Assembly (NCBI GenBank): GCA_902539745.1
Contig: CACBKA010000005.1
Span: 10,957-74,956, forward strand
Length of the DNA stretch: 64,000 nt
Source of the DNA: an uncultured Pelagibacteraceae bacterium
GTDB taxonomy: Bacteria; Pseudomonadota; Alphaproteobacteria; Pelagibacterales; Pelagibacteraceae
Direction: 5' to 3'
Position numbers and translations under genes: made by a program. The notes beneath the pieces were generated by a model that saw only the letters and a list, made by a program, of their open reading frames with translations, was not told the origin of the DNA and searched no databases. How positions within the stretch are numbered: position 1 is the first letter of the stretch; each line of letters begins with the position of its first letter. Shown piece by piece: positions 25,970 to 64,000 of the stretch.

Positions 25970-26866
25970 ATGCATTTTACAAAAAAAAATGCTGGGGAGA
26001 AAAGAAAAGATTTTATAAACAATCTTAAAGAAAAAAAATTACTTAGATTTCCTGGCGCATACAATCCTTTATGTGCAAAATTAATTGCTGAAATTGGATT
26101 TGATGGTATTTATATTTCTGGCGGGGTGATGTCTAATGATCTTGGAATTCCAGATATAGGACTTACAACACTTAAACATGTAAATTATAGAGCAAGCCAA
26201 ATAGCTAAAGTAAGTGATTTGCCTTCTATCGTTGATGCAGACACTGGTTTTTCAAATTGCAAAAATACAATTGAAACTTTTGAGAATTCTGGTCTTGCTG
26301 GGTGTCATATTGAAGATCAAGTAGCTGAAAAAAGATGCGGTCACTTAGAAAATAAAGAACTTATTTCAACAAATGAAATGGTAAAGAAAATTAAAGATTC
26401 GATAAAAGCAAGAAAGGACAAACATTTTTCAATAATTGTAAGAACAGATGCAAATCTCGTAGAAGGTCTTAATAAAACTATTGATAGAATAAAAGCTTAT
26501 GAAGCGGCTGGTGCTGACATAATATTTCCTGAATCTATGAAAGATGAGAAAGAATTCGAAAATGTTAGAAAAAATTCAAAGGCTTATTTACTCGCAAACA
26601 TGACTGAATTTGGAAAATCTAAATTATTATCTACAAAAGAATTAGAGAATTTAGGATATAATATTGTAATATACCCAGTAACTACCCAAAGATTAGCAAT
26701 GAAGAGTGTTGAGGAAGGATTGAGGTCTATTTTTAAGGATGGACATCAAAATAATATTATAGATAAAATGCAAACTCGTAAAAGATTATACGAACTTGTA
26801 GAGTATGAAAAATATAATACTCCAAACAAGAAAATTACAGATTTTAAAACTGAGGGACATGAATAA
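25970..26866 (+). CDS. prpB: Methylisocitrate lyase (ICL/PEP-mutase superfamily)
   Basis: IEDQVAEKRCGHLENK signature. Adjacent to the prpC-type citrate synthase gene. Confidence 0.8.
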   Translation: MHFTKKNAGEKRKDFINNLKEKKLLRFPGAYNPLCAKLIAEIGFDGIYISGGVMSNDLGIPDIGLTTLKHVNYRASQIAKVSDLPSIVDADTGFSNCKNTIETFENSGLAGCHIEDQVAEKRCGHLENKELISTNEMVKKIKDSIKARKDKHFSIIVRTDANLVEGLNKTIDRIKAYEAAGADIIFPESMKDEKEFENVRKNSKAYLLANMTEFGKSKLLSTKELENLGYNIVIYPVTTQRLAMKSVEEGLRSIFKDGHQNNIIDKMQTRKRLYELVEYEKYNTPNKKITDFKTEGHE

Positions 26867-26869
26867 ATT

Positions 26870-27994
26870 ATGAGCGATGAAGTAAAAAAAGGTTTAATGG
26901 GTATAGTTGTTGATGAAACTACTATCTCACAAGTTATGCCAGAAATTAATTCGCTTACATACAGAGGATACAAAGTTCAGGATCTTTGTGAAAAATGTAT
27001 TTTCGAAGAAGTTGCTTATCTAGTTTTAAATGGTGAGCTTCCAAGATCAAAAGAATTAAAAAAATTTATAAACGAGGAAAGAAATAATCGTAAATTATCA
27101 AAACAAATTTTGAATGATATTAAAAACATGCCAAAGAAAGCACATCCAATGGATGCGATAAGATCAGCTGTTAGTTTAATGGGTCTTGAAGATAAAGATG
27201 CAGGTGATAATTCGCCAAAAGCAAATATGAGAAAAGCTATGAGAATTTTTGCTCAAACCCCTACAGCTGTTGCAGCTTATTTTAGAGCAAGAAAAGGTAA
27301 AAAATTTATACCGCCGAACAAAAAATTATCGTATTCAGAAAATTTCTTTCATATGATGTTTGGTAAAGTTCCAAAGAAAGAAATAGTAGAGGCTTTTGAT
27401 GTTTCTATGATTCTTTATGCTGAACATAGTTTTAATGTTTCTACTTTCACTGCAAGAACAATAACAAGCAGTTTGTCTGATATGCATGGTGCAATAACTG
27501 GGGCGATCGCTAGTCTTAAAGGACCATTGCATGGAGGTGCTAATGAAGCTGTAATGCATATGTTTAAAGAAATTAAATCTCCTCAGAAAGCAAAGTCTTG
27601 GATCAATGATGCATTAGATAAGAAAAAGGTGATTATGGGGTTTGGTCATCGAGTTTACAGAAGTGGAGACTCTAGGGTGCCCACGATGAAAAAATATTTT
27701 TTAAAGGTAGCTGAGTTAATGAAAAATACTAAATATCCTGAGATGTATGACACTTTAGAAAAAGCTATGCTTGAAAGAAAAAATATTCATCCTAATGTTG
27801 ATTACCCTTGCGGACCGACTTATCATTTAATGGGAATAGATACAGACTTTTTTACACCAGTTTTTGTAATGGCTAGAATAACTGGGTGGTCTGCTCATAT
27901 CATGGAACAGCATACTGCAAATAAATTAATTAGGCCTTTATCTAAGTATAAAGGGAGCGAGCACAGAGAGGTGCTGGCTTTAAATATAAGATAA
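26870..27994 (+). CDS. prpC: 2-methylcitrate synthase / citrate synthase family
   Basis: GPLHGGANE and GFGHRVY motifs. 374 aa. Confidence 0.85.
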   Translation: MSDEVKKGLMGIVVDETTISQVMPEINSLTYRGYKVQDLCEKCIFEEVAYLVLNGELPRSKELKKFINEERNNRKLSKQILNDIKNMPKKAHPMDAIRSAVSLMGLEDKDAGDNSPKANMRKAMRIFAQTPTAVAAYFRARKGKKFIPPNKKLSYSENFFHMMFGKVPKKEIVEAFDVSMILYAEHSFNVSTFTARTITSSLSDMHGAITGAIASLKGPLHGGANEAVMHMFKEIKSPQKAKSWINDALDKKKVIMGFGHRVYRSGDSRVPTMKKYFLKVAELMKNTKYPEMYDTLEKAMLERKNIHPNVDYPCGPTYHLMGIDTDFFTPVFVMARITGWSAHIMEQHTANKLIRPLSKYKGSEHREVLALNIR

Positions 27995-54084: not shown

Positions 54085-55272
54085 ATGCACTCTTTAGATT
54101 TAGTAGTTTTAGCTGGAGGTAAAGGTTCTAGAATTAAATACCTTCTAAAAAAGAAAGCTAAACCAATGGCTATTTTTAACAAAAAACCATTCATAGAATA
54201 TATTATACAGAATTATAGTAAATATCGTTTTAAAAATATCTTTCTACTAACTGGTTACAAATCTAAGGAAATAATAAATAAATTTCATAAGAAGTACTAC
54301 AATTTCACGTTAATAAATTGTCTTAAAGAAAAAAAGCTTATGGGTACAGGTGGTGCTCTTAATATTTTAAAGAAAAAAAAATTAAACGATTTTATTTTAA
54401 TTAATGGGGATACATTTCTTAATGTTGATTTGAGTAAATTAATTAAATCGTGCAGTAGAAATAGTTTTGGATCCCTTTGTTTGGTAAAAAGTAAATCATA
54501 TAAATCAAATAGGAAATTAATAACTATGGGTTTAAAGCAAGGAAGAATTGTTTTTAAAAATTCAGGTGGCTTCATGAATGGAGGTGTATATTTCTTTAAA
54601 AAAAAAATTTTGAAACTCATTAAAAATAAAAACCTCTCTTTAGAAAATGAGATTTTACCGAATTTAATAAATAAGAAAAAAATTTCAGGAATTGTTGCAA
54701 GCAGTTTCTTTTTAGATATCGGTACACCTATTAATTTTAAGAGAGCAAAAAAACTTTTGATTAAAAATTGTTCAAAACCTGCTGCGTTCTTAGATAGAGA
54801 TGGTGTAATAAATTATGATACCGGTTACGTTCATAAAATTAGAGATTTTAAATTTAGACCCGGAGTTATTGAAGGATTAAAATTATTAATAAAAAGGAAT
54901 TACTTTATTTTCATTGTTACAAATCAAGCAGGAATTGGTAAAGATATCTTTTCAAAAAGTGAGTTTTATAGACTGCATAATCAAATAAAAGAAAAACTTC
55001 AAAATAAAAATATATTTTTTGATGATGTAAATTACTGTCCATATCATCCAAAGGCAAAATTAAAAAAATATAGAAAAAAAACCGAACTAAGAAAACCAGG
55101 AAATTTAATGATACGTCAAATTAAAAAAAAGTGGCATATAAAAGACAGTGGTAGTTTTATGATTGGGGATAAAATTTCCGACAAAATTTGCGCTAAAAAA
55201 AGTAAGTTGTATTTTGAATTTGCAGAAAGAAATTTTCTTAATCAAATTAAAAGAATTACCAAACGAAGCTAG
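54085..55272 (+). CDS. Fusion of sugar-1-phosphate nucleotidyltransferase (HddC/RmlA-like) and D,D-heptose 1,7-bisphosphate phosphatase (GmhB, HAD)
   Basis: N-terminal part: VVLAGGKGSRI and LMGTGGAL. C-terminal part: FLDRDGVIN, TNQAGIGK, YCPYHP, RKPGNLM, GDKISD (GmhB signature set). 395 aa. Confidence 0.8.
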   Translation: MHSLDLVVLAGGKGSRIKYLLKKKAKPMAIFNKKPFIEYIIQNYSKYRFKNIFLLTGYKSKEIINKFHKKYYNFTLINCLKEKKLMGTGGALNILKKKKLNDFILINGDTFLNVDLSKLIKSCSRNSFGSLCLVKSKSYKSNRKLITMGLKQGRIVFKNSGGFMNGGVYFFKKKILKLIKNKNLSLENEILPNLINKKKISGIVASSFFLDIGTPINFKRAKKLLIKNCSKPAAFLDRDGVINYDTGYVHKIRDFKFRPGVIEGLKLLIKRNYFIFIVTNQAGIGKDIFSKSEFYRLHNQIKEKLQNKNIFFDDVNYCPYHPKAKLKKYRKKTELRKPGNLMIRQIKKKWHIKDSGSFMIGDKISDKICAKKSKLYFEFAERNFLNQIKRITKRS

Positions 55273-56204
55273 TAATTATTTATAATTTTTTTATTATCCG
55301 TACTAAATAAATCAATTAATTCTTCAATGCCTTGTTCCAAAGATGCTTTTGCTTTAAAGCCTTTTTTTTCAATTTTTTTATTACTTACAAAATAATCTCT
55401 TTTGTCTGGATCTTTTCTGTTTGTAATAATTTTAATTTTAAGTTTATTCATTTTTTTCTTTATTTTTTTTGCTAACATAAGTTTACTTATATTTGCAGAT
55501 GAAAGTCCCAAATTATAAATATTTGATTTTAATTTATTAAAATTTTTTATCGCGTAAATTATTCCTAAAACTACATCCTTAATATGTATAAAATTTCTTC
55601 TAAAATGAGGTTCGAAAATTGTTAGTTTTTTTGTTTTTACTGATTTATAAACAAAGTTATTTACTAATAAATCTGTTCTCATTCTATAACTGTATCCAAA
55701 AACTGTTGCTAATCTGAAGCAAATAAAATTTTTAGATTTTTTTACCTCTTCCTCTGCATCGCATTTTGTTCTACCGTAAAGTGATATTGGGTTTAAAGGA
55801 CTGTTTTCATCACAAAATTTATTTTTTTCTCCAACTCCATATCCAGAATTGGTAGTTAAAAATATTATTTTATTTTTTTTTGAGCTCAAAGATACAAGAT
55901 TTTTAATTGAATGGTGATTTACTGATATTGCATCTTTCTTATATTTATCACACAAAGGAGCACCGACTAAAGCAGCTAATGGTATTATAAATTCATTTTT
56001 TTTAAGTAAAGATTTTAATAATTTTTTATCTCGGACATCTTTTTTTATTAATTTAAAATTTTTAAAGTAATAAAGATGATTTAGTGATCCTCTATCATAT
56101 TTCATCAAATCTAAAACAGTAACTTTATGGCCTAAATTAACAAGGGCTGTGGATAGCATTGATCCAACATATCCTCCCCCACCAGTTATTAAAATTTTAC
56201 TCAT
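55269..56204 (-). CDS. NAD-dependent sugar-nucleotide epimerase/reductase (extended SDR)
   Basis: ITGGGGYVGS and YGRTK (YxxxK). 311 aa. Last gene of the operon. Confidence 0.75.
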   Translation of the reverse strand: MSKILITGGGGYVGSMLSTALVNLGHKVTVLDLMKYDRGSLNHLYYFKNFKLIKKDVRDKKLLKSLLKKNEFIIPLAALVGAPLCDKYKKDAISVNHHSIKNLVSLSSKKNKIIFLTTNSGYGVGEKNKFCDENSPLNPISLYGRTKCDAEEEVKKSKNFICFRLATVFGYSYRMRTDLLVNNFVYKSVKTKKLTIFEPHFRRNFIHIKDVVLGIIYAIKNFNKLKSNIYNLGLSSANISKLMLAKKIKKKMNKLKIKIITNRKDPDKRDYFVSNKKIEKKGFKAKASLEQGIEELIDLFSTDNKKIINNY

Positions 56205-56205
56205 T

Positions 56206-56694
56206 TTACAAATATTTTGAAGTTCTATCCCTTTTACTTAGAATTGGTTTTCTTATTGGCCATTTAATTTTAAATTTTGGGTCATTCCATCTGTAACTTT
56301 TTTGTTTATTTGAGTCTACATATTTTCCTTTATAAGACCATTTGTAATGAAAAACACATTTATTAGATAAACATAAATAGGCATTGGCAAAATGTGGTGG
56401 TATTAATATTAAAGTTGGTTTTTCATGTTTTAGGAACCAGCTTTTATGTTTTAAATAATTTTTTGATTTTTTCTCCATATTTACAACAACAAAAAAAACT
56501 TTTCCATAAGTGCATGTTACCAATTTCCAAGACTTAAAATCACAATGCAAACCTCGTAAAACATTTTTGTTTGAAATGGAAAACTTATCATGATTAAATT
56601 TAAGTTTCCGTAAAATACCTTTTTTCCACGTTGTCCAATAAAAACCTCTCTTGTCTCTAAAAGTAGAATTTTTTATAACTTTAAGTTTAATCAT
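56206..56694 (-). CDS. RmlC-like sugar-nucleotide 3,5-epimerase (cupin)
   Basis: FRDKRGFYWTTW and VLRGLHCD motifs. I place the start at ATG 56694, giving a 4-nt ATGA overlap with the upstream gene (the track uses 56721). Confidence 0.7.
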   Translation of the reverse strand: MIKLKVIKNSTFRDKRGFYWTTWKKGILRKLKFNHDKFSISNKNVLRGLHCDFKSWKLVTCTYGKVFFVVVNMEKKSKNYLKHKSWFLKHEKPTLILIPPHFANAYLCLSNKCVFHYKWSYKGKYVDSNKQKSYRWNDPKFKIKWPIRKPILSKRDRTSKYL

Positions 56695-57872
56695 AATTTT
56701 ATTGCATTTAAAATCGAGCAAATTTTTTTTATTCTAGATGACTTTAAACTTGGATAATTCCCAATATAATAGCCAAAGAAATGAACATGATCAACTTCTG
56801 GAAACTTTTTTAGATTAATTTTCTTCAAGTAAGTTTTTAAATACGGTTGTCTAAGCTGATTGCCACCTCCAGCATTTCCTCTTCTAAATTCAATGTTATA
56901 TCTTTTTAAGGTCAACTCAAAACGATCTCTAAACTTAAAACTTTTGTTTTTAAAAACAACTGGAAATGCGTAATTTGAACTACCATCAACTTCATAATCA
57001 ACCCTATATTTAGATGGGTCTAATAAATTTAAGAAAAGTTTTAAATTTTTTGTTCTTGTCCTATTATTTTTATCGAGTCTTTTAAGCTGGTTTATACCAA
57101 TCACAGCTCCAATTTCATTATTTCTAAAATTAAAAGTTGGATGTAAAAAAATAAATTGGGGGGATAATTTTGGATATTTTTTTATCATTTGTTTTTCAAA
57201 TTTCAGATTTTTTGCTTCTCTTGCCATGCCGTGAGACCTAAAAATTCTTGCTAATTCATAAATTTTTTTATTATTTGTGCAGATCATCCCGCCTTCAATA
57301 GTTGACATATGATGTGCATAATAAAAAGAAAAATTGGATATCAAACCAAATGTTCCTAATTTTTTGTTTTTATATTTAGCTCCATGTGACTCACACACAT
57401 CTTCTACAAGAATTATCTTTTTTCTTTTAATTTTTTTTAAAAGTTTTTCTGACAAACTATTAAATCCTTGTACGTGTGTTACAAAAACAGCAAGTGTATT
57501 TTTGTTTATTTTGCTCAAAACTTGATCTTGATTCATAGAAAGTGTTCTTGGATCAATATCGACAAATACAGGTTTAAAACCTGCCATTATTACAGAATTT
57601 ATATCTGAAACCCAAGTTAGTGTAGGAACAATAATCTCTTTTTTTTTAAGAGATAAGCTTTTTAATATTAACATACTTAATAAGTTAGCTGAAGATCCAG
57701 AATTAACAAAAACACTAAATTTTACACCAAGCCATTTGGACCATTTTTTTTCAAACTCAATAACATTCTTTGATTGTGTAAGAATTAAATTCTTATTTTT
57801 AATTAATTTTCTAACAGAATCCATATCGGATTTAATAAAATTATTGTGCATTAGTGGATGATTAATCTTCAT
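56691..57872 (-). CDS. DegT/DnrJ/EryC1-family PLP enzyme of the ColD/E1 3-dehydratase type
   Basis: SGSSANLL, and FSFYYAHHMSTIEGG where His occupies the usual Schiff-base Lys position. Only three Cys in total, so no E1-type Fe-S motif. 393 aa. Confidence 0.75.
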   Translation of the reverse strand: MKINHPLMHNNFIKSDMDSVRKLIKNKNLILTQSKNVIEFEKKWSKWLGVKFSVFVNSGSSANLLSMLILKSLSLKKKEIIVPTLTWVSDINSVIMAGFKPVFVDIDPRTLSMNQDQVLSKINKNTLAVFVTHVQGFNSLSEKLLKKIKRKKIILVEDVCESHGAKYKNKKLGTFGLISNFSFYYAHHMSTIEGGMICTNNKKIYELARIFRSHGMAREAKNLKFEKQMIKKYPKLSPQFIFLHPTFNFRNNEIGAVIGINQLKRLDKNNRTRTKNLKLFLNLLDPSKYRVDYEVDGSSNYAFPVVFKNKSFKFRDRFELTLKRYNIEFRRGNAGGGNQLRQPYLKTYLKKINLKKFPEVDHVHFFGYYIGNYPSLKSSRIKKICSILNAIKL

Positions 57873-58864
57873 TTTTTATCCTTTTTTAATTGATCAAAAA
57901 TTATTTCACTTCCTGCTGAAGTGAATTTAAACGGAATATTAATTAGTTTATAATTTTTTTTAAAAAATTTTTTTCTTTGATCTTGTCTCATGTACATAAG
58001 TAAAAAACCACCACCGCCTGCACCTAACAATTTACCTCCTAAAGCTCCAAATCTAATTGCATCATCATAAATATCATTTATTTTTGAATTTGTAATTAAA
58101 CTACTAAGAGCCTTTTTTTCCATCCAAGCATCATTTAAAAGTCTTCCAAAATCATCAATATTACCATATTTTAAAATACGTTCACCTTCTTTAACGTAAT
58201 TTAATATTTTACTAATATGTTCTTTCTTAATCGTTGTAAGTTTACTTACATATTGATTTGCTATTTTATGAGCAGTTCTATTAATGCCTGTGTAAATTAA
58301 AACAAGATTTTCATTTAATTTTTTTATATTTTTTTTTGAAGAAACTCTTTTAACATTAATAGAATTATTTTTATTAAATAGAATCTTATTAAAACCACCA
58401 TAAGAAGCTGAGGTCTGATCTTGTGAGCCCACCACTTCTCTCATTATATTTTGTTCAAAATTAATACTATTTTTTGCTAACTCAGCTCTAGTTAATTTAA
58501 TATTTTTAATTTTATATAAAGCCTGCATCAGTCCAACAGTGAAAGATGAGCTAGAACCCATTCCGCTTCTTGCAGGTAAATCACCATAATAATGGATTTC
58601 TAATCCTTCTTTAATATTTAGATGTTTTAGTAGATATCTTACAGCTTTGTGATTTATTTCATTAATTTTTTTTACATTCTCAATTTTTCTCCATACTATT
58701 CTATATTTTTGTTTAAAATAACCTGGTGAGAAACGACAAGTAATATAAATATGCTTATCAATTGTAGAAGATAATACAGCACCTCCATTTTTTTTATACC
58801 ATGAGGGATAATCACTACCGCCTCCAAAAAATGATATTCGATACGGTGTTTTTGTAATAATCAT
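57869..58864 (-). CDS. GHMP kinase of the heptose 7-phosphate kinase (HddA) type
   Basis: N-terminus TKTPYRISFFGGGSDYPSWY and GHMP loop PARSGMGSSSSF. 331 aa. Confidence 0.75.
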   Translation of the reverse strand: MIITKTPYRISFFGGGSDYPSWYKKNGGAVLSSTIDKHIYITCRFSPGYFKQKYRIVWRKIENVKKINEINHKAVRYLLKHLNIKEGLEIHYYGDLPARSGMGSSSSFTVGLMQALYKIKNIKLTRAELAKNSINFEQNIMREVVGSQDQTSASYGGFNKILFNKNNSINVKRVSSKKNIKKLNENLVLIYTGINRTAHKIANQYVSKLTTIKKEHISKILNYVKEGERILKYGNIDDFGRLLNDAWMEKKALSSLITNSKINDIYDDAIRFGALGGKLLGAGGGGFLLMYMRQDQRKKFFKKNYKLINIPFKFTSAGSEIIFDQLKKDKK

Positions 58865-58867
58865 ATT

Positions 58868-59404
58868 TTACTTTTCGCTATAATAATCTCCATACTCAAC
58901 TAGAATTGTACTTTTCCCATCTTTCCTCTCAATTGCTTTTTTGTATGATGTAAATATATCTGATGGTTCCTCAAGTCTTATGATTTCTACTGTGCTTAAA
59001 ACTTTTTGAAATGCTTCCGTAAAATCTCCAATGTGTTGGTGTTGAGGATGTAAGGGCCTTTGTGAACCGATTGATGTTCTTATAATTACTTTGGTTTTAA
59101 ATTTGCCTTGTGACATTATACTAAATTTATCTAAATGACTAACTAACTGATTTGTAGCAAGTAAAAGAAAATTCCATCTTGGAAATATACTTATAGGAAT
59201 ATGTCCGTTTAAAGCTAATCCATTGCTTATTCCTAATTGCATTTCTTCTGCGACAGGTAATTCATAGAGTTTACTTTTTGGTATACTTTTTAAAGTGTTT
59301 GTCATTGCAGTGCCTGGGTATGCAACTGCTTGTCCAAGAAATATAGTTCTTGGATCTTTACTCAGATAAATCATTGATTTAGTTAATTCCTCGGCGTATT
59401 TCAT
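58868..59404 (-). CDS. Minimal E1-beta/transketolase Pyr-domain protein
   Basis: 178 aa. ELPVAEEMQLGISNGLALNG matches the E1-beta Pyr-domain Glu context. The C-terminal domain found in E1-beta is absent. Confidence 0.55.
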   Translation of the reverse strand: MKYAEELTKSMIYLSKDPRTIFLGQAVAYPGTAMTNTLKSIPKSKLYELPVAEEMQLGISNGLALNGHIPISIFPRWNFLLLATNQLVSHLDKFSIMSQGKFKTKVIIRTSIGSQRPLHPQHQHIGDFTEAFQKVLSTVEIIRLEEPSDIFTSYKKAIERKDGKSTILVEYGDYYSEK

Positions 59405-59407
59405 AAA

Positions 59408-60010
59408 TTAAAATTGTATCCTTTTCCCTGCACCAGCATGTGGCCACTTAGACTTATAGCTGTAAAAAGTGACAAATTTATCATTAGAACCCTCAAAACT
59501 TAAATTTTTTTGCTGCCATGTTTTTCTAGTGTCTGTACAAACAGATAATGAATTATCCTCTATAACAAAATGAATTGGTAAATCAAAATTTCTACTGTAT
59601 TTAATACACTCATGGGCTATACCTGTTTCAGATGTCATCTCTCCCATAAAACAATAAACCATTGCGCTTTTTTCTTTTCTAAGCTTCAAAGACATTGCTG
59701 TACCTACTGCTATAGGAATAGAGCCTCCAACTAATGCTGATGAGTATATTTTGTACTCAGGAAAACACAAAGATATGGATCTGCCTGATAAAATTTCATT
59801 TTTAACTTCTTCTTTTGGAACACCTTTGAGAAGACATTGATAATGTGATCTCCAACTACAAAAAACCCAATCTTGCTTGTTAATTTTTTTAAAAATTTCT
59901 ATTATTTTATCTTCATTACCTTGATAAAGATGAACTGGAGCTCTTATTTTACCTTGATTAAATAAAGATGCAATTTCCTCCTCAAAGTTTATTAAGTCCT
60001 TTTTATTCAT
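59408..60010 (-). CDS. Minimal E1-alpha-like ThDP (PP-domain) protein
   Basis: 200 aa. FEEEIASLF..VHLYQGNE, and a ThDP motif variant GEMTSETG..(x)..VIEDNSLSV. Shares the C-terminal W-x-H-[AS]-G-A-G motif with the 279-aa paralogue. Confidence 0.55.
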   Translation of the reverse strand: MNKKDLINFEEEIASLFNQGKIRAPVHLYQGNEDKIIEIFKKINKQDWVFCSWRSHYQCLLKGVPKEEVKNEILSGRSISLCFPEYKIYSSALVGGSIPIAVGTAMSLKLRKEKSAMVYCFMGEMTSETGIAHECIKYSRNFDLPIHFVIEDNSLSVCTDTRKTWQQKNLSFEGSNDKFVTFYSYKSKWPHAGAGKRIQF

Positions 60011-60011
60011 T

Positions 60012-60929
60012 TTATACTCTTTTTTTTATTTTTATTTGTTTAATTTTATTTATTATTTCTAAAGCTGAGGGCGGAAAATTGCTAGTTTCAAGTGTATATC
60101 CCGCAGACTTATCTTTTAATCCTAAAACATAAACTTTTTTATTGGTCTGCTCATTTATTTTATGAGCTAAAGTTCTAATTATACCATCAACATAATCATT
60201 ATCAGTCATAAGAACTCCATATTTAGAGCTTTTAATCATGCTTATCCATTTTTTTTTCAAGACAAAGGGTTTTAATTCATATAAATGAATTATCCCAACC
60301 TTATAGCCATTGTTATTTAAATAATTTTTTGCTTTTTCTGCCTCGAAACGAGTTACTGATATTGGCATTAAAATTATATCAAGATTCTTTTTTATAGAAT
60401 TTTTGAACTCTATTTTATTTTCATAACTTTTTCTATGTTCTGAGACATAAAAAACATCGTCTGACTTCATAAATTTTTTATAAGTTTTAGTGTATTCATT
60501 TTTAGTCATGGGAGAATAAATTTTGATCCCAGGCATTTTGTAAAAGATTGATATATGGCTTGATGTAGAAACTGGACCTAAGCCACCTTCACTTGAAAGA
60601 CCTCTAATAAACATTGGTGCGGGCTTGTTCCAAATTTCTTTAGACTTACATGCGTAATTAACAATAAAAATACAATTTAACCAGTTATATCCTTGATATC
60701 TTATTATATAGAACGGTCTCCTCCCAACTAATGCCGCACCAGTAACCATTCCGCCGTTAGCAACGTCGGCCATTGGTAGCTCTATCACGCCATCTTTCTC
60801 ATAAAGTTTTGGTAAGGTTCCGGCTACCCAACCAACACCTGTTAGGTTTTGTCCAAAAACCTGACCTTTAAATTTTTTTAAGTGTTTAAAGGTTATTTGT
60901 TTTATTACTTCTCTAAGCGTTGTTTCCAT
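60012..60929 (-). CDS. E1-beta-like ThDP enzyme subunit (Pyr plus C-terminal domains)
   Basis: 305 aa. IELPMADVANGGMVTGAALVG and PGIKIYSPMT pattern. Confidence 0.7.
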   Translation of the reverse strand: METTLREVIKQITFKHLKKFKGQVFGQNLTGVGWVAGTLPKLYEKDGVIELPMADVANGGMVTGAALVGRRPFYIIRYQGYNWLNCIFIVNYACKSKEIWNKPAPMFIRGLSSEGGLGPVSTSSHISIFYKMPGIKIYSPMTKNEYTKTYKKFMKSDDVFYVSEHRKSYENKIEFKNSIKKNLDIILMPISVTRFEAEKAKNYLNNNGYKVGIIHLYELKPFVLKKKWISMIKSSKYGVLMTDNDYVDGIIRTLAHKINEQTNKKVYVLGLKDKSAGYTLETSNFPPSALEIINKIKQIKIKKRV

Positions 60930-61744
60930 AAATTTTCAATCTTTTTTTTTATATTTCTATGAATTTTTTCTGCTTTTTTTCCTAAAAATTTTTTTTCTAA
61001 TGTTAGTCTATCTCCTTTTACTTCTTCATCTACACCTGCACCCGAATGCCAGAAAAGTCTCTTAGTATTTACATTTATAAAAATTGGTTTTTTAAACAAG
61101 TTTTTTTTTAGTACTGAAAAAATATTTTTGGGTTGGTCATCAATATCGTAAGATTCTAATTTAAACGCTTTTGCAACATCCTTAGCTTTCCAATCTCTTC
61201 TGTCCTTCTTTTTAGTTAACACGGCATAATTATTATCCTCTACTACAAAAAGTATAGGTAATTCCTTTTTGGCTGCCCAACTTAATGAGGCTAAAACATA
61301 GTCTTCCTCGACAGATGCATCACCTAAGAAGACGATAGTAGGTTTTGCAGATGAAAAACATGCTCCAACACCCATACATGCATTGCTTCCCATTAATCCC
61401 TCATGACCAAACATGTTAATTTTATTTGAATTTATTGATAATGATCCGCCCATACCTCGTGTACATCCAGTTTTTTTTCCCAAAAGTTCGTCAATTAGTT
61501 CTACAATATTTCCTCCAAAAGAAAGATATATCGAGTGTCCTCTATGCTGCCCAAAGATAAGAGGTTTTTGTTTTTTATCTTTTACTATCTGAGCTATTGA
61601 TGATGGAACATATTCTTGTCCGGCTGATAGATAAACTGGAAAATTGATAATTTTTTCATTAACTCTTTTAAAAACCTCATTTTCAAAATTTCTGCACAAA
61701 GAAGCCTTTTCAAATGTTTTTAAACGATAATTTTTGTATGACAA
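60905..61744 (-). CDS. E1-alpha-like ThDP enzyme subunit
   Basis: 279 aa. RNFENEVF, SAGQE, GMGGSLS, and the ThDP motif GDASVEEDYVLASLSWAAKKELPILFVVEDNNYAV. Confidence 0.7.
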   Translation of the reverse strand: MSYKNYRLKTFEKASLCRNFENEVFKRVNEKIINFPVYLSAGQEYVPSSIAQIVKDKKQKPLIFGQHRGHSIYLSFGGNIVELIDELLGKKTGCTRGMGGSLSINSNKINMFGHEGLMGSNACMGVGACFSSAKPTIVFLGDASVEEDYVLASLSWAAKKELPILFVVEDNNYAVLTKKKDRRDWKAKDVAKAFKLESYDIDDQPKNIFSVLKKNLFKKPIFINVNTKRLFWHSGAGVDEEVKGDRLTLEKKFLGKKAEKIHRNIKKKIENLWKQRLEK

Positions 61745-61745
61745 T

Positions 61746-63266
61746 TTAGTCTCCCAGTAGTTTTCTTTTTAGTTTAATCTTAGTTGTGCTTTTAATATTA
61801 TCTACTGCGTTTTGACCAAATTTTTCTTTTATTAAATTTAAATATTTCTCATTAGTATGGTATTTCATCCAAGCTTCATCTCTAAATTTAAGTATTTGAC
61901 TAGCAGAAAGTTTCGTAGTTGACAAATTTTGTGTATCGTATGAATGTTGACTATATCCTGAATAAGTCGATGGAAGTTCAATTCCATTTTTTCGAGCCTC
62001 TAAGAAAAGAGGACTACCAGGATATGCCATCGCAGAATAAAAGTTTACCATCTCTGAATTTGTTTCTTCAGCAAAGTCATATGTAAATTTTAAACTTTTC
62101 TCTGTATCCTCTGGCAAGCCAAAAATATAATTGGCAGCGACATTTATTCCAGAGTCTCTAATTCCATTTATAACATCTATGATTTTAACTTCTTTATATG
62201 AGTCTTTGTGAACCTCTTTTCTTAAAACGGTATCTGGATTTTCTATTCCAAGACCTAGCCAATTAACTCCCGCTTTTTTTAGTTTTTCTAAATATTGTGG
62301 CTTGCAAGTATCAATTCTTGAGTAAGCCCAAATATTAAAACCATAATTTCTCTCAATTAATAAATCACATATCTTCATAAAATGGTTTGGATTAAGTACA
62401 AAAAGTTCATCTGCGATTTTTACATTTTTAACTCCTTGCTTTGCAATATAATCGAACTGTTTAATTATAAATTCTGGTGACCACCATCTAAAAATATTCG
62501 AGTTTTGAGATGAAATGTTTTCATCATTGTTAGTTCTATTAATTATATTTATCATACAAAATGAGCATTTGTATGGACACCCCAGACTTGTATATAAAGC
62601 TGCGAAAGGTTGTTTGTCAGAATTATTTGACCAAGAATGCCATCCTGCAGTCCTATATTCGGATAACTTGGGTAACAAATCCCAGGCTATTCCTGGTAAA
62701 TCATTTTCTAAAAGTTTTTTTGGTACTACTATTTCTGGTTCGTTTAAAATAATTTGGTTTTCATTATTTCTAAAACCTATTCCTTTAATTTTTTTTAGAT
62801 AAGACTCTTCATTTAAATTATCAGCACTCAATAAATTTGATATTGAGTATACTCCTTCATTTAATGCAACGAAATCAATACTAGATTCATTTAGTAAAGT
62901 TTCTCTAGGTAAGGCAGCAACATGACCTCCAACAAATAAAGTTTTAATTTCATTATTTAATTTTTTTAATTCTATGGAGGTTTTTGTAGCTCCCTCCATA
63001 TTTTGAGATGAAGCTGAGGGTTGTTGCCCATAGACTACAAAACAAGCAATTTTTGGTTTAAGATTATTTATTTCTTTAGCACTTTTTTCATAATCGAGTT
63101 TACTAACTTCGCAATCCAAAATTGCTGTTTTAAAATTATTAGACCTACAGTGGTTTGCTAACATTCCTGCCCATATAGGCGGCTCATATGCAGAATGGTC
63201 TTTGCTAAGTTCTTGATAAATTTTTTTAGATGCGTTTGGGTGAATAAATAAAATATCTAGGCTCAT
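61746..63266 (-). CDS. B12-binding-domain radical SAM enzyme (class B, methyltransferase-like)
   Basis: N-terminal Rossmann-like cobalamin-domain pattern (ILFIHPN...FVGGHVAALP) followed by the CxxxCxxC motif in LGCPYKCSFCM. 506 aa. Confidence 0.8.
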   Translation of the reverse strand: MSLDILFIHPNASKKIYQELSKDHSAYEPPIWAGMLANHCRSNNFKTAILDCEVSKLDYEKSAKEINNLKPKIACFVVYGQQPSASSQNMEGATKTSIELKKLNNEIKTLFVGGHVAALPRETLLNESSIDFVALNEGVYSISNLLSADNLNEESYLKKIKGIGFRNNENQIILNEPEIVVPKKLLENDLPGIAWDLLPKLSEYRTAGWHSWSNNSDKQPFAALYTSLGCPYKCSFCMINIINRTNNDENISSQNSNIFRWWSPEFIIKQFDYIAKQGVKNVKIADELFVLNPNHFMKICDLLIERNYGFNIWAYSRIDTCKPQYLEKLKKAGVNWLGLGIENPDTVLRKEVHKDSYKEVKIIDVINGIRDSGINVAANYIFGLPEDTEKSLKFTYDFAEETNSEMVNFYSAMAYPGSPLFLEARKNGIELPSTYSGYSQHSYDTQNLSTTKLSASQILKFRDEAWMKYHTNEKYLNLIKEKFGQNAVDNIKSTTKIKLKRKLLGD

Positions 63267-63271
63267 GAAAA

Positions 63272-64000
63272 TTAATAGTCTTTAAAAGCATCGTATATCT
63301 TTTGTCTAGGATCCGTAATAACCTCAATAAAAAGAGGTTTGTTATTTTTCATTATTTTTTTCAAGTCGTTATCTATTTCTTTGAAGTTATGTATCAAATA
63401 ATGGTCTAAATCAAATGCTTTTGCAATATTTTTGAAATTAAGTGTGCCTGTTCCGGTATCTTCTGGATTATCTAGTCTTCTTCCTTTGAAAAATGTATCG
63501 GCCCAATTATGCATAGATACGTAACCACCATTGTTAATAACAAATAATTTAATGTTAAACTTGTTGTGAGAAATTGTTTTAAGTTCCTGGATATTTAATT
63601 CTAGTGATCCGTCACCTGTCACTGCTAAAACTCGAGATCTTGGAGCTGCAACTGCTGCTCCAATCGCCAGAGGAACAGATAGACCCATAGCTGCATTAGA
63701 TACTGAAGTGATTTCCTTTGTTCCTTTTTCAAAAGTCCAAACTTGTCCACCGATATAATAATTTGAACCAGCATCTGTTACTAAAATATCATTTTTTTTT
63801 GCAATTTTTCCAAGTTTTTGCATAAAAAAATATAAATCAATTGGATTTTTTTGTTTTAATTTTGAGGGAATAATTGGTTTATTCTTTTTATTATTTAAAC
63901 AAAAATTTATCCAACTATTGTAGCTGGGAAATTTAGAAACTTTTGTCATTTTATTTAAAATCGGTAAAAAGTTTTTCAAGTCATAATTAAATCTATAATT
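63272..64000 (-). CDS. Acetolactate-synthase-family (YerE/IlvB-like) ThDP enzyme, C-terminal part; gene continues past the window end
   Basis: ThDP motif VTGDGSLELNIQELKTISHNKFNIKLFVINNGGY. The frame stays open from 63979 to 64000 (NYRFNYD upstream of the track's TTG start). Confidence 0.8.
   Translation of the reverse strand, partial: NYRFNYDLKNFLPILNKMTKVSKFPSYNSWINFCLNNKKNKPIIPSKLKQKNPIDLYFFMQKLGKIAKKNDILVTDAGSNYYIGGQVWTFEKGTKEITSVSNAAMGLSVPLAIGAAVAAPRSRVLAVTGDGSLELNIQELKTISHNKFNIKLFVINNGGYVSMHNWADTFFKGRRLDNPEDTGTGTLNFKNIAKAFDLDHYLIHNFKEIDNDLKKIMKNNKPLFIEVITDPRQKIYDAFKDY

What the first reader, a model, noticed from the sequence alone, without database searches (positions are those of the whole stretch)
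61746..63266. Cobalamin-domain radical SAM enzyme in a genome type reported not to use B12
Seen in sequence: a 506-aa protein with an N-terminal B12-binding-like Rossmann domain and a CPYKCSFC radical SAM cluster motif.

Established knowledge, to my recollection: cultured SAR11 genomes are described as lacking both cobalamin biosynthesis and cobalamin-dependent enzymes.

Inference: if this is a genuine class B methyltransferase, then either the strain needs exogenous cobalamin for surface-glycan tailoring, or the domain works without cobalamin. Some B12-domain radical SAM enzymes may do this.
Basis: partly seen in the sequence, partly recalled or inferred. Interest (0 to 1): 0.6.

Follow-up and report, generated by a model that had tools for sequence, protein, structure and literature searches.

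The report
B12-type radical SAM enzyme in SAR11
A SAR11 ocean bacterium carries an intact vitamin-B12-type radical enzyme inside a cell-surface sugar gene cluster. Such enzymes, and a B12-sensing uptake system, turn out to be common in SAR11 relatives, so the group's "B12-free" reputation does not hold for its variable genes.

Summary
**Observation: confirmed.** Window 61746-63266 (minus strand) encodes an intact 506-aa protein.
- It has a Pfam B12-binding domain above the curated cut-off.
- It has a radical SAM core with the cluster motif CPYKCSFC.
- The genome is Pelagibacteraceae (SAR11).

**What it is.**
- It is an uncharacterised subfamily with class-B radical SAM architecture.
- It is the best-conserved gene (58-65% identity across phyla) of a mobile nucleotide-sugar cassette.
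- The cassette also holds an HddA-like kinase, a nucleotidyltransferase, a ColD/RfbH-like enzyme, an SDR and a PDH-E1-like ThDP pair.
- The same cassette occurs in T4-like ocean phages.
- No curated family claims the protein.
- The nearest solved structure is AprD4, which works without cobalamin. Cobalamin-dependent enzymes follow closely.

**The paradox is softened, not settled.**
- 87 of 301 Pelagibacteraceae species genomes encode B12-domain proteins of radical-SAM size.
- 32 of 150 carry an AdoCbl-II riboswitch. In the loci examined it precedes a BtuB-like receptor and, where the sequence reaches far enough, DUF6580. The cultured strain HIMB114 is among them.
- 31 of those 32 also carry such a B12-domain protein.
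- In this 80%-complete genome no uptake gene was found. A contig breaks at the site where a sister genome has the module.
- Four of eight genomes with the ortholog have the riboswitch.

**My reading.** It is a sugar-tailoring enzyme, probably cobalamin-dependent (about 55%). Its chemistry is unresolved.

Earlier notes of this scan describe the SAR11 and phage B12 modules on other DNA.

The parts
61746..63266 (-). 506-aa radical SAM enzyme with class-B architecture (P0001)
   Evidence: ORF. Pfam PF02310 plus PF04055, both above cut-off. AF2 model pLDDT 87.5. Whole-chain structural matches to AprD4, MgmA, CysS, OxsB, TsrM and TokK.
62841..63185 (-). N-terminal Rossmann-type B12-binding-like domain (residues 28-142)
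   Evidence: PF02310, 40.9 bits against cut-off 32.1. The loops after strand 3 (YGQQPSASSQNMEGA) and strand 4 (FVGGH, a GG motif) are invariant or nearly so in orthologues from several phyla.
62070..62591 (-). Radical SAM core (residues 226-399). The [4Fe-4S] motif CPYKCSFC lies at 62556-62579.
   Evidence: PF04055, 66.7 bits. C230, C234 and C237 are invariant.
63272..64000 (-). 3' part of a 566-aa three-domain ThDP enzyme (ALS/YerE-like). The gene runs to 64972 on the contig, beyond the window.
   Evidence: Full ORF found on contig C5. TPP_enzyme_N, M and C domains.
60905..61744 (-). PDH-E1 alpha-like ThDP subunit (279 aa), long pair
   Evidence: E1_dh / TIGR03182, 103 bits, below cut-off. 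Co-conserved with the radical SAM gene in Pelagibacter, Methylopumilus, SAR116 and phage loci.
60012..60929 (-). PDH-E1 beta-like subunit (305 aa), long pair
   Evidence: Transket_pyr plus Transketolase_C. Co-conservation shown.
59408..60010 (-). Short E1 alpha-like subunit (200 aa)
   Evidence: E1_dh, 66.7 bits. Present at about 48% identity in 47 of 70 loci from other phyla.
58868..59404 (-). Short E1 beta-like subunit (178 aa, Pyr domain only)
   Evidence: Transket_pyr. Present in 46 of 70 loci from other phyla.
57869..58864 (-). HddA-like GHMP sugar kinase
   Evidence: GHMP_kinases_N and C. Best NCBIfam match is D-glycero-D-manno-heptose 7-phosphate kinase, 136 bits, below cut-off. Present in 75 of 80 loci.
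56691..57872 (-). DegT-family PLP/PMP enzyme with His at the Schiff-base Lys position (ColD/RfbH-like 3-dehydratase type)
   Evidence: PF01041, 219 bits. Best NCBIfam match RfbH, 184 bits. Motif SFYYAHHMSTIEGG and only 3 Cys.
56206..56721 (-). RmlC-like cupin, 3,5-epimerase family
   Evidence: PF00908, 127 bits; TIGR01221, 110 bits, below cut-off.
55269..56204 (-). NDP-sugar SDR (epimerase / dehydratase / reductase family)
   Evidence: PF01370 and related families. Present in 71 of 80 loci at about 48% identity.
54085..55272 (+). Nucleotidyltransferase fused to a GmhB-type heptose bisphosphate phosphatase
   Evidence: NTP_transferase plus a HAD domain. NCBIfam matches: TIGR00213 GmhB (128 bits) and HddC-like (92 bits).

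Best explanation
**What it is.** The gene encodes a functional radical SAM enzyme of class-B architecture. A B12-type Rossmann domain is packed onto a [4Fe-4S]/SAM barrel.

**What it acts on (inferred from gene context).**
- It tailors a nucleotide-activated sugar made by its own operon.
- An HddA-like kinase and a nucleotidyltransferase-GmhB fusion activate a heptose-type sugar.
- An SDR and a ColD/RfbH-like PMP enzyme make a deoxy-keto intermediate.
- ThDP enzymes (E1-like pairs, plus a YerE-like enzyme in SAR11) add a carbon branch.
- The radical SAM enzyme performs a radical step on an unactivated carbon of this sugar or of its side chain.
- The product goes into the variable surface glycan.

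**Cofactor (inferred).** I think it more likely than not (about 55%) that the N-terminal domain holds cobalamin and that the step is a methyl transfer or rearrangement of the GenK/OxsB kind. Cobalamin would be scavenged through the module that many SAR11 relatives carry: an AdoCbl-II riboswitch, a BtuB-like receptor and DUF6580.

**Shown versus inferred.**
- Shown: domain architecture, fold, the conserved cassette, its distribution, and the B12 uptake module in relatives.
- Inferred: the substrate, the chemistry, cobalamin use, and whether this strain has the uptake module.
For: **Architecture and fold.**
- Sequence profiles place it nearest HpnJ (124 bits), BchE (92) and PhpK (83). These matches span both domains.
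- The AprD4 profile matches only the core, at 51 bits.

**Cassette.**
- In 80 genomic loci from Pelagibacteraceae, Methylopumilus, SAR116, Methylococcaceae, Planctomycetales, Omnitrophota and Elusimicrobia, the radical SAM gene co-occurs with a kinase (75), an SDR (71), a nucleotidyltransferase (66), a DegT-like gene (64) and an E1-like pair (about 50, or 17 for the long pair).
- SIS/GmhA-like and HAD genes join it in Methylopumilus.
- The YerE-type acyl-branching logic on 3,6-dideoxy-4-keto sugars is established (PMC9306805).

**Cobalamin.**
- PF02310 is above cut-off and near full length.
- The GG motif after strand 4 and the strand-3 loop are kept in all orthologues.
- In Pelagibacteraceae, 31 of 32 riboswitch-bearing genomes have a PF02310 protein, against 1 riboswitch among 95 genomes without one.
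- Orthologue carriers (at least 79% identity) have the riboswitch in 4 of 8, including genomes with 97% and 86% identical enzymes. Non-carriers of the same two genera have it in about 2 of 31.
- 12 of 16 carriers from other phyla have cobalamin riboswitches.
- In the loci examined, the riboswitch precedes a receptor whose best NCBIfam match is the TonB-dependent B12 receptor. Where the sequence reaches far enough, a DUF6580 membrane protein follows.
Against: - **No uptake genes here.** No riboswitch, TonB receptor, DUF6580 or adenosyltransferase was found in the assembled 80% of this genome.
- **Family members without uptake.** None of the seven SAR11 genomes of at least 95% completeness that carry family members has the riboswitch, two of them closed. 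The four of these tested also lack a TonB receptor, DUF6580 and the adenosyltransferases. However, these carry the 41-51% identical subfamilies, which have GS or GT in place of GG.
- **Nearest solved structure is cobalamin-free.** By sequence and by fold the nearest solved structure is AprD4 (phmmer 2.9e-10; Z 30.0 against 27.2 for the next). AprD4 does not bind cobalamin (PMC12931638).
- **No diagnostic motif.** As far as I know, class-B enzymes have no sequence motif diagnostic of cobalamin binding.
- **Weak statistics.** Related genomes are not independent, so the co-occurrence counts overstate significance. Part of the association is physical linkage of the riboswitch to a different radical SAM gene.
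- **Substrate untested.** The heptose substrate is inferred from below-cut-off matches. No GmhA was found in the assembled genome.
Confidence: 0.55

Rival explanations
1. The N-terminal domain is a B12-like Rossmann domain that binds no cobalamin, as in AprD4. The enzyme would use only SAM and its [4Fe-4S] cluster. One possible reaction is a radical 1,2-diol dehydration or another redox-neutral rearrangement of the sugar nucleotide, with a neighbouring SDR reducing the product, as AprD3 does for AprD4. SAR11 could then use it with no B12 at all.
For: - AprD4 is the best match in the PDB by sequence.
- It is also the best match by Foldseek (E 8e-22) and by VIA-align (Z 30.0, rmsd 3.0, 417 of 453 residues).
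- AprD4 acts on an aminosugar and binds no cobalamin (PMC12931638).
- Family members sit in seven near-complete SAR11 genomes, two of them closed, none of which has the riboswitch. The four tested further also lack a TonB receptor, DUF6580 and adenosyltransferases.
- An SDR is adjacent to the radical SAM gene in most Omnitrophota and Planctomycetales loci.
Against: - The AprD4 family model scores only 51 bits (cut-off 500), and only over the core. Identity is 19%.
- Cobalamin-dependent MgmA, CysS, OxsB and TsrM are within 3-4.5 Z units.
- No HpnJ or BchE structure exists for comparison.
- The uptake-free complete genomes carry diverged subfamilies, not the orthologue.
- The cassette already has a ColD-like deoxygenation enzyme.
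- The orthologue co-occurs with the B12 riboswitch more often than the background rate.
Confidence: 0.33
2. The gene is carried but idle in this strain. The cassette arrived by transfer from a phage or another bacterium and cannot work, because the cell has no cobalamin supply.
For: - The cassette is mobile. It occurs in several phyla and in T4-like phage records.
- Inteins with homing endonucleases sit in family members.
- No uptake genes were found in the assembled genome.
Against: - The ORF and all nine neighbours are intact and tightly packed.
- Orthologues in other SAR11 single-cell genomes are 79-98% identical and full length, which fits selection rather than decay.
- SAR11 genomes are streamlined and, by established knowledge, rarely keep dead genes.
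- The genome is only 80% complete.
Confidence: 0.05
3. The enzyme belongs to a phosphonate pathway (a Fom3- or PhpK-type methyltransferase) rather than to sugar tailoring.
For: - The PhpK family is the third-best NCBIfam match, at 83 bits.
- A PEP-mutase-family gene lies in the same window.
Against: - The PEP-mutase-family gene lies 35 kb away and sits next to a citrate-synthase-family gene. That is the PrpB/PrpC arrangement of the methylcitrate cycle.
- It is the only PEP-mutase-family match in the assembled genome, so no separate PEP mutase candidate was found.
- The ThDP enzymes of the cassette match E1-type or ALS-type families, not a phosphonopyruvate decarboxylase model.
- All conserved neighbours are nucleotide-sugar enzymes.
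Confidence: 0.02

Closest known systems
AprD4 (PDB 6FD2), radical SAM 1,2-diol dehydratase of apramycin biosynthesis
   Same: - Same two-domain layout: a B12-like Rossmann domain plus a radical SAM barrel of similar length.
- Best sequence and fold match among solved structures.
- Its substrate is a sugar.
   Different: - Only 19% identity.
- The AprD4 family model scores 51 bits against a cut-off of 500, and only over the core.
- AprD4 acts on a pseudodisaccharide, not on a nucleotide sugar.
- AprD4 binds no cobalamin, whereas cobalamin use here is open.
Cobalamin-dependent class-B radical SAM enzymes with solved structures: MgmA, CysS, OxsB, TsrM, TokK
   Same: - Whole-chain structural alignment with Z 23-27.
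- PF02310 plus PF04055 architecture.
   Different: - 13-17% identity.
- None acts on a nucleotide sugar.
- None of their family models reaches its cut-off.
HpnJ (hopanoid-associated radical SAM, TIGR03471) and BchE (TIGR02026)
   Same: They are the best curated profile matches, covering both domains (124 and 92 bits). From memory, HpnJ is thought to act on a sugar-derived head group.
   Different: - Scores are far below the cut-offs (577 and 481).
- There are no hopanoid or bacteriochlorophyll genes nearby. The context is a nucleotide-sugar cassette.
GenK / GenD1 / Fom3-type cobalamin-dependent C-methyltransferases
   Same: This is the proposed kind of chemistry: methylation of an unactivated sugar or side-chain carbon.
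   Different: Not compared here. No reference sequence or curated model for them was available in the tools.
Yersiniose / erwiniose / caryophyllose acyl-branched sugar pathways (YerE, ErwE; PMC9306805)
   Same: The operon combines a 3-deoxygenation-type PMP enzyme, SDRs and a YerE/ALS-like ThDP enzyme. This is the logic of acyl branching on a 3,6-dideoxy-4-keto sugar.
   Different: - A text search of the paper describing those pathways found no mention of a radical SAM enzyme or of cobalamin.
- The genes it does describe include no E1 alpha/beta-like pair.
- The cassette conserved across phyla lacks the YerE-like gene.

Membership tests
Class B (cobalamin-dependent) radical SAM enzymes | Radical SAM core with a CxxxCxxC [4Fe-4S] motif | tested here: met
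   PF04055, 66.7 bits. C230, C234 and C237 are invariant.
Class B (cobalamin-dependent) radical SAM enzymes | N-terminal Rossmann-type B12-binding domain | tested here: met
   PF02310, 40.9 bits against cut-off 32.1, covering profile positions 12-117 of 121. The whole-chain fold matches TsrM, OxsB, TokK, CysS and MgmA.
Class B (cobalamin-dependent) radical SAM enzymes | The protein actually binds and uses cobalamin | not testable with these tools
   This needs purified protein. AprD4 shows that the architecture alone is not proof.
Class B (cobalamin-dependent) radical SAM enzymes | The organism can obtain cobalamin (uptake or synthesis) | tested here: inconclusive
   - Nothing was found in the 80%-complete genome.
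- Contig C7 breaks where sister genome G063 has the riboswitch-BtuB-DUF6580 module.
- 4 of 8 orthologue carriers have the riboswitch.
Curated class-B subfamilies (HpnJ, BchE, PhpK, HpnR, KedN5, MgmA/TIGR04014, TsrM-type, BzaD) | Score at or above the NCBIfam cut-off | tested here: not met
   The best is HpnJ at 124 bits against 577.6. All others are lower.
AprD4 family radical SAM diol dehydratases | Score at or above the NF033070 cut-off over the full length | tested here: not met
   51 bits against 500, over residues 222-429 only.
AprD4 family radical SAM diol dehydratases | Shared fold, including the cobalamin-free N-terminal domain | tested here: inconclusive
   AprD4 is the top structural match (Z 30.0, 417 residues). 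Cobalamin-dependent enzymes score 25.6-27.2, and occupancy of the pocket could not be examined.
GenK / GenD1 / Fom3 / HpnP C-methyltransferases | Phylogenetic placement within those clades | not tested
   No reference sequences or curated models for these were available.
Phosphonate-pathway methyltransferases (Fom3/PhpK context) | Linked PEP mutase and phosphonopyruvate decarboxylase | tested here: not met
   The only PEP_mutase-family gene is PrpB-like and sits beside a citrate-synthase-family gene, 35 kb away.
SAR11 / Pelagibacteraceae genome | Nearest relatives, size and composition | tested here: met
   - 97-98% identical loci occur in Pelagibacteraceae single-cell genomes.
- The genome is 0.92 Mb at 80% completeness, with 29-30% G+C.
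- Family-level searches place it in a genus with 34 other sampled species.

The most novel reading that the evidence does not exclude
The enzyme catalyses a so far undescribed, cobalamin-dependent radical step on a nucleotide-activated deoxy-keto heptose or its ThDP-added side chain. The step belongs to a cassette shared by SAR11, several other phyla and T4-like ocean phages.

If so, part of the SAR11 population needs scavenged vitamin B12 to build its surface glycan, and only for that. B12 supply would then shape O-chain chemistry and phage susceptibility in the ocean's most abundant bacterium.
Probability: 0.3. Interest if true: 0.75.

Novelty: new member of a known kind. Interest (0 to 1): 0.55.

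Why it matters
**The B12 budget of SAR11.**
- SAR11 is routinely treated as neither needing nor using vitamin B12. That view feeds into models of B-vitamin traffic in the ocean.
- The variable surface-glycan genes of many SAR11 lineages hold B12-type radical SAM enzymes.
- About a fifth of sampled species also hold a riboswitch-controlled B12 receptor.
- If these enzymes do use cobalamin, SAR11 has a strain-variable B12 demand tied to cell-surface chemistry. That chemistry is the target of phages.

**The enzyme itself.**
- It is the conserved core of an uncharacterised sugar pathway. The pathway spans free-living bacteria, ultra-small Omnitrophota and large phages, so its reaction is worth determining.
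- If the enzyme instead works without cobalamin, it would be a second lineage, after AprD4, in which a B12-binding-type domain does not report B12 use. It would be a very widespread one. That matters for genome-based predictions of B12 dependence.

Tried and rejected
**Checks that led nowhere or misled.**
1. *Classic cobalamin riboswitch model (RF00174).* It gave no hit in the own genome or in four carriers. It proved insensitive for SAR11. In the family survey it gave only 2 hits above cut-off, whereas RF01689 (AdoCbl-II) gave 32 hits at 44-101 bits. A negative from RF00174 alone would have misled.
2. *FecCD (BtuC-type) hit in the own genome* (29.6 bits). It is a ZnuB-type ABC-3 permease next to an ABC ATPase and a Fur-family regulator. 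Rejected as B12 transport.
3. *PEP-mutase-family gene at window 25970-26866.* It is PrpB-like and sits beside a citrate-synthase-family gene. The phosphonate reading is rejected.
4. *TonB barrel model PF00593.* It missed several partial SAR11 receptors, so I repeated the test with the Plug model, with DUF6580, and by tblastn with the SAR11 receptors themselves. All were negative for the own genome.
5. *DUF6580 against the PDB by sequence.* No match. A BtuM-like role is only my guess from memory.
6. *GenBank phage collection.* No match to P0001. IMG/VR gave more than 100 matches.
7. *Literature searches.* Searches for SAR11 with radical SAM and cobalamin, for the SAR11 O-chain cluster paper, and for btuB with riboswitch found no paper discussing these enzymes. 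One 2016 paper tabulates TonB transporters and btuF for SAR11 genomes.
8. *GmhA.* tblastn with two SIS proteins from related cassettes found none in the assembled genome.

**Not done.** A phylogeny against GenK, GenD1, Fom3 and HpnP was not possible, because no reference sequences were available.
Full report
**1. The observation**

- The ORF at 61746..63266 is real and lies on the minus strand.
- Its 506-aa product (P0001) has a Pfam B12-binding domain at residues 28-142. It scores 40.9 bits against a cut-off of 32.1 and is nearly full length.
- It also has a radical SAM core at residues 226-399, scoring 66.7 bits.
- The cluster motif C230-PYK-C234-SF-C237 is invariant in 26 aligned homologues.
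- No curated NCBIfam family reaches its cut-off. The best matches are HpnJ (124 bits against 577.6), BchE (92) and PhpK (83). The AprD4 model gives 51 bits, over the core only.
- The AlphaFold model built on an alignment of 26 sequences is confident: pLDDT 87.5, pTM 0.90.

**2. Whose genome**

- The assembly has 25 contigs, 0.92 Mb and 29-30% G+C, and is 80% complete.
- The closest loci in a species-level genome collection are Pelagibacteraceae single-cell genomes at 97-98% protein identity.
- NCBI names the homologues 'B12-binding domain-containing radical SAM protein [Candidatus Pelagibacter sp.]'.
- The SAR11 assignment holds.

**3. The setting**

The gene is the second of ten tightly packed minus-strand genes in a low-G+C glycan island that starts near 49.5 kb. 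In order:

| Position | Product |
|---|---|
| 63272 to 64972 on the contig (beyond the window) | 566-aa three-domain ThDP enzyme of the ALS/YerE type |
| 61746-63266 | the radical SAM gene |
| 60012-61744 | long PDH-E1 alpha/beta-like pair |
| 58868-60010 | short PDH-E1 alpha/beta-like pair |
| 57869-58864 | HddA-like GHMP kinase |
| 56691-57872 | DegT-family enzyme, best match RfbH, with His at the Schiff-base Lys position (SFYYAHHMSTIEGG, three Cys) |
| 56206-56721 | RmlC-like cupin |
| 55269-56204 | SDR |
| 54085-55272 (plus strand, divergent) | nucleotidyltransferase fused to a GmhB-type phosphatase |

All of these are nucleotide-sugar enzymes. The combination of a 3-deoxygenation-type PMP enzyme, SDRs and a YerE-like ThDP enzyme is the published logic for acyl-branched 3,6-dideoxy sugars (PMC9306805). 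A text search of that paper found no mention of a radical SAM enzyme or of cobalamin.

**4. A conserved, mobile cassette**

- I compared the window's proteins with 80 genomic loci that encode relatives of P0001. In them the radical SAM gene is 58-65% identical across Methylopumilus, Burkholderiaceae, Methylococcaceae, SAR116, Planctomycetales, Omnitrophota and Elusimicrobia.
- It travels with the kinase (75 of 80 loci), the SDR (71), a nucleotidyltransferase (66), the DegT-like gene (64) and one E1-like pair. About 50 loci have the short pair and 16-17 the long pair.
- The Methylopumilus locus adds SIS (GmhA-like), HAD, DJ-1, cupin and NUDIX genes.
- The YerE-like gene is confined to SAR11 among the genomic loci. 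Weak relatives of it (29% identity) also occur in 21 of the 80 viral loci.
- More than 100 IMG/VR viral contigs encode 46-69% identical relatives, together with the SDR, DegT-like, kinase and E1-like genes.
- Six of 16 large viral records carry a T4-type Gp23 capsid gene on the same contig. One is a 186-kb record rated complete.
- Many family members carry inteins, some with HNH or DUF559 endonucleases, inserted at the cluster motif.
- The family has 410 clusters at 50% identity with E at most 1e-30.
- The radical SAM enzyme is therefore the conserved core of a widely transferred sugar module, not a stray gene.

**5. Fold**

| Structure | Cobalamin | VIA-align Z | Other |
|---|---|---|---|
| AprD4 (6FD2) | none bound | 30.0 | rmsd 3.0, 417 of 453 residues, 19% identity |
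| MgmA | dependent | 27.2 | |
| CysS | dependent | 26.6 | |
| OxsB | dependent | 26.2 | |
| TsrM | dependent | 25.6 | |
| TokK | dependent | about 23 | |
| MiaB/RimO | not a class-B enzyme | about 21 | |

- Foldseek also ranks AprD4 first.
- AprD4 is the best PDB match by sequence as well (E 2.9e-10, core only).
- A 2026 review states that AprD4 does not bind cobalamin (PMC12931638).
- The gap to the cobalamin enzymes is about 3 Z units, and no HpnJ or BchE structure exists. This leans towards the cobalamin-free rival without deciding for it.

**6. Is SAR11 really B12-free?**

[quoted passage not shown] Another paper calls it a B12 auxotroph (PMC9296465).
- I surveyed 301 Pelagibacteraceae species representatives.
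  - Relatives of P0001 (at least 41% identity) occur in 29 of them.
  - Any PF02310 match occurs in 91, and in 87 it is above cut-off. There are up to nine per genome.
  - Nearly all the listed matches lie in open frames of about 450-730 aa, the size of class-B enzymes. A few are shorter frames, at least some cut by contig ends. None is of MetH size.
- The general cobalamin riboswitch model gave only weak hits. Re-scanning two of them showed an AdoCbl-II riboswitch (RF01689) at 71-74 bits.
- Searching with RF01689 found it in 32 of 150 species representatives at 44-101 bits. Seven of these are closed or nearly closed genomes.
- In all eight loci examined, the riboswitch is followed by a TonB-dependent receptor. 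In the one scored against NCBIfam, the best match is the vitamin B12 receptor (133 bits).
- In the three loci long enough to see, a roughly 160-aa ORF follows the receptor. In the one scanned against Pfam it is a DUF6580 protein, and that sequence is strongly hydrophobic. A different, roughly 540-aa B12-domain radical SAM gene and glycosyltransferases lie alongside.
- One of these genomes is the cultured isolate HIMB114. Its receptor is deposited as 'outer membrane cobalamin receptor protein'.
- A 2016 paper already tabulates TonB transporters and btuF for SAR11 genomes.
- Of the 32 riboswitch-bearing genomes, 31 have a PF02310 protein. Of 95 genomes without such a protein, one has the riboswitch (handles taken as stable between calls).
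- The only B12-binding-domain proteins seen in SAR11 are these radical SAM enzymes, and the uptake module follows them. This is the strongest indirect argument that at least some of them use cobalamin.

**7. This enzyme and this genome**

- Own genome: no riboswitch of either class was found. No TonB receptor, DUF6580 or PduO/CobA adenosyltransferase was found either.
- The single weak FecCD hit is a ZnuB-type permease.
- The genome is 80% complete. Contig C7 ends about 200 bases into a fragment 51% identical to a glycosyltransferase of sister genome G063, just after a pntA-like gene. At the same place G063 (enzyme 86% identical) has glycosyltransferases, a SIS gene, a kinase, DUF6580, the receptor, the riboswitch and the second radical SAM gene.
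- For this strain the question is therefore undetermined.

Among all 29 SAR11 carriers, 11 have the riboswitch. The seven carriers of at least 95% completeness do not. Aligning the carriers splits them into three subfamilies:

| Subfamily | Identity to P0001 | After strand 4 | Genomes | With riboswitch | Notes |
|---|---|---|---|---|---|
| A (orthologues) | at least 79% | FVGGH | 8 | 4 | all 73-89% complete |
| B | 45-51% | GSH | 16 | 5 | holds six of the near-complete negatives |
| C | 41-44% | GTH | 5 | 2 | holds the seventh near-complete negative, a closed genome |

- The four positive subfamily-A genomes include those whose enzymes are 97% and 86% identical to P0001.
- Non-carriers of the same two genera have the riboswitch in about 2 of 31.
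- These genomes are related to one another, so the counts are only suggestive.
- Twelve of 16 carriers from other phyla have cobalamin riboswitches. That fits cobalamin use but does not discriminate.

**8. Verdict**

The either/or is the right question, but the premise that the genome type has no B12-related genes does not hold at the level of the SAR11 pangenome, nor for one cultured strain.

| Statement | My estimate |
|---|---|
| Sugar-nucleotide tailoring role | about 0.8 |
| Cobalamin use by this orthologue | about 0.55 |
| Methyl transfer specifically | about 0.4 |
| Cobalamin-free, AprD4-like chemistry | about 0.33 |

- The family is uncharacterised, so it is a new member of a known kind of enzyme, in a cassette that I did not find described.
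- Earlier notes of this scan on other DNA describe the SAR11 B12 uptake operon and phage-borne versions. I reached the module independently before reading them.

Noticed in passing
L086, L087, L088-L096, L179-L184 (other Pelagibacteraceae genomes): - An AdoCbl-II riboswitch (RF01689, 44-101 bits) occurs in 32 of 150 Pelagibacteraceae species genomes, including cultured HIMB114.
- In the loci examined it is followed by a BtuB-like TonB receptor and, where the sequence reaches far enough, a DUF6580 membrane protein.
- It lies beside a roughly 540-aa B12-domain radical SAM gene inside glycan islands.
- The general model RF00174 mostly misses it.
   Followed up: yes
P0167, P0169, P0180, P0189 (family members from metagenomes): Inteins are inserted at the CxxxCxxC cluster motif (about residue 231) of this radical SAM family. 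They include a mini-intein and forms with HNH or DUF559 homing endonucleases.
   Followed up: partly
L099-L178 (IMG/VR viral contigs): - More than 100 viral contigs encode 46-69% identical relatives of the enzyme, together with the SDR, DegT-like, kinase and E1-like genes.
- Six of 16 large records carry a T4-type Gp23 capsid gene, including 186-kb and 318-kb records.
- The GenBank phage collection gave no match.
   Followed up: partly
G000 contig C7, last 2.6 kb (L098), compared with L096: The own contig C7 ends just after a pntA-like gene, about 200 bases into a fragment 51% identical to a glycosyltransferase of sister genome G063. At that position G063 has a glycan island holding the B12 uptake module, so a second island of this genome is unassembled.
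   Followed up: partly
window 25970-27994 (+): A PEP-mutase-family gene is followed by a citrate-synthase-family gene. This is the PrpB/PrpC arrangement of the methylcitrate cycle, not a phosphonate pathway.
   Followed up: partly
L013:11516-12064, L016:11517-12065, L085:10549-11073: A roughly 180-aa gene sits directly after the radical SAM gene in Methylopumilus, Methylococcaceae and one Pelagibacter locus. The Methylopumilus and Pelagibacter copies scan as DJ-1/PfpI. The Methylococcaceae copy was not scanned. The window's operon lacks it.
   Followed up: no
L016:14681-16141: The Methylococcaceae version of the cassette holds a second, 29% identical radical SAM gene of the same architecture.
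   Followed up: no
window 58868-61744 (-): Two PDH-E1 alpha/beta-like pairs lie in tandem. Other phyla keep only the short pair (200 + 178 aa). Methylopumilus, SAR116 and most SAR11 loci keep only the long pair. One Pelagibacter locus (L084) has a split transketolase in that place instead.
   Followed up: partly
G000 contig C1:113441-115447 (L097): A ZnuB-type ABC-3 permease, an ABC ATPase and a Fur-family regulator lie together. This was the only FecCD-like hit in the genome.
   Followed up: yes
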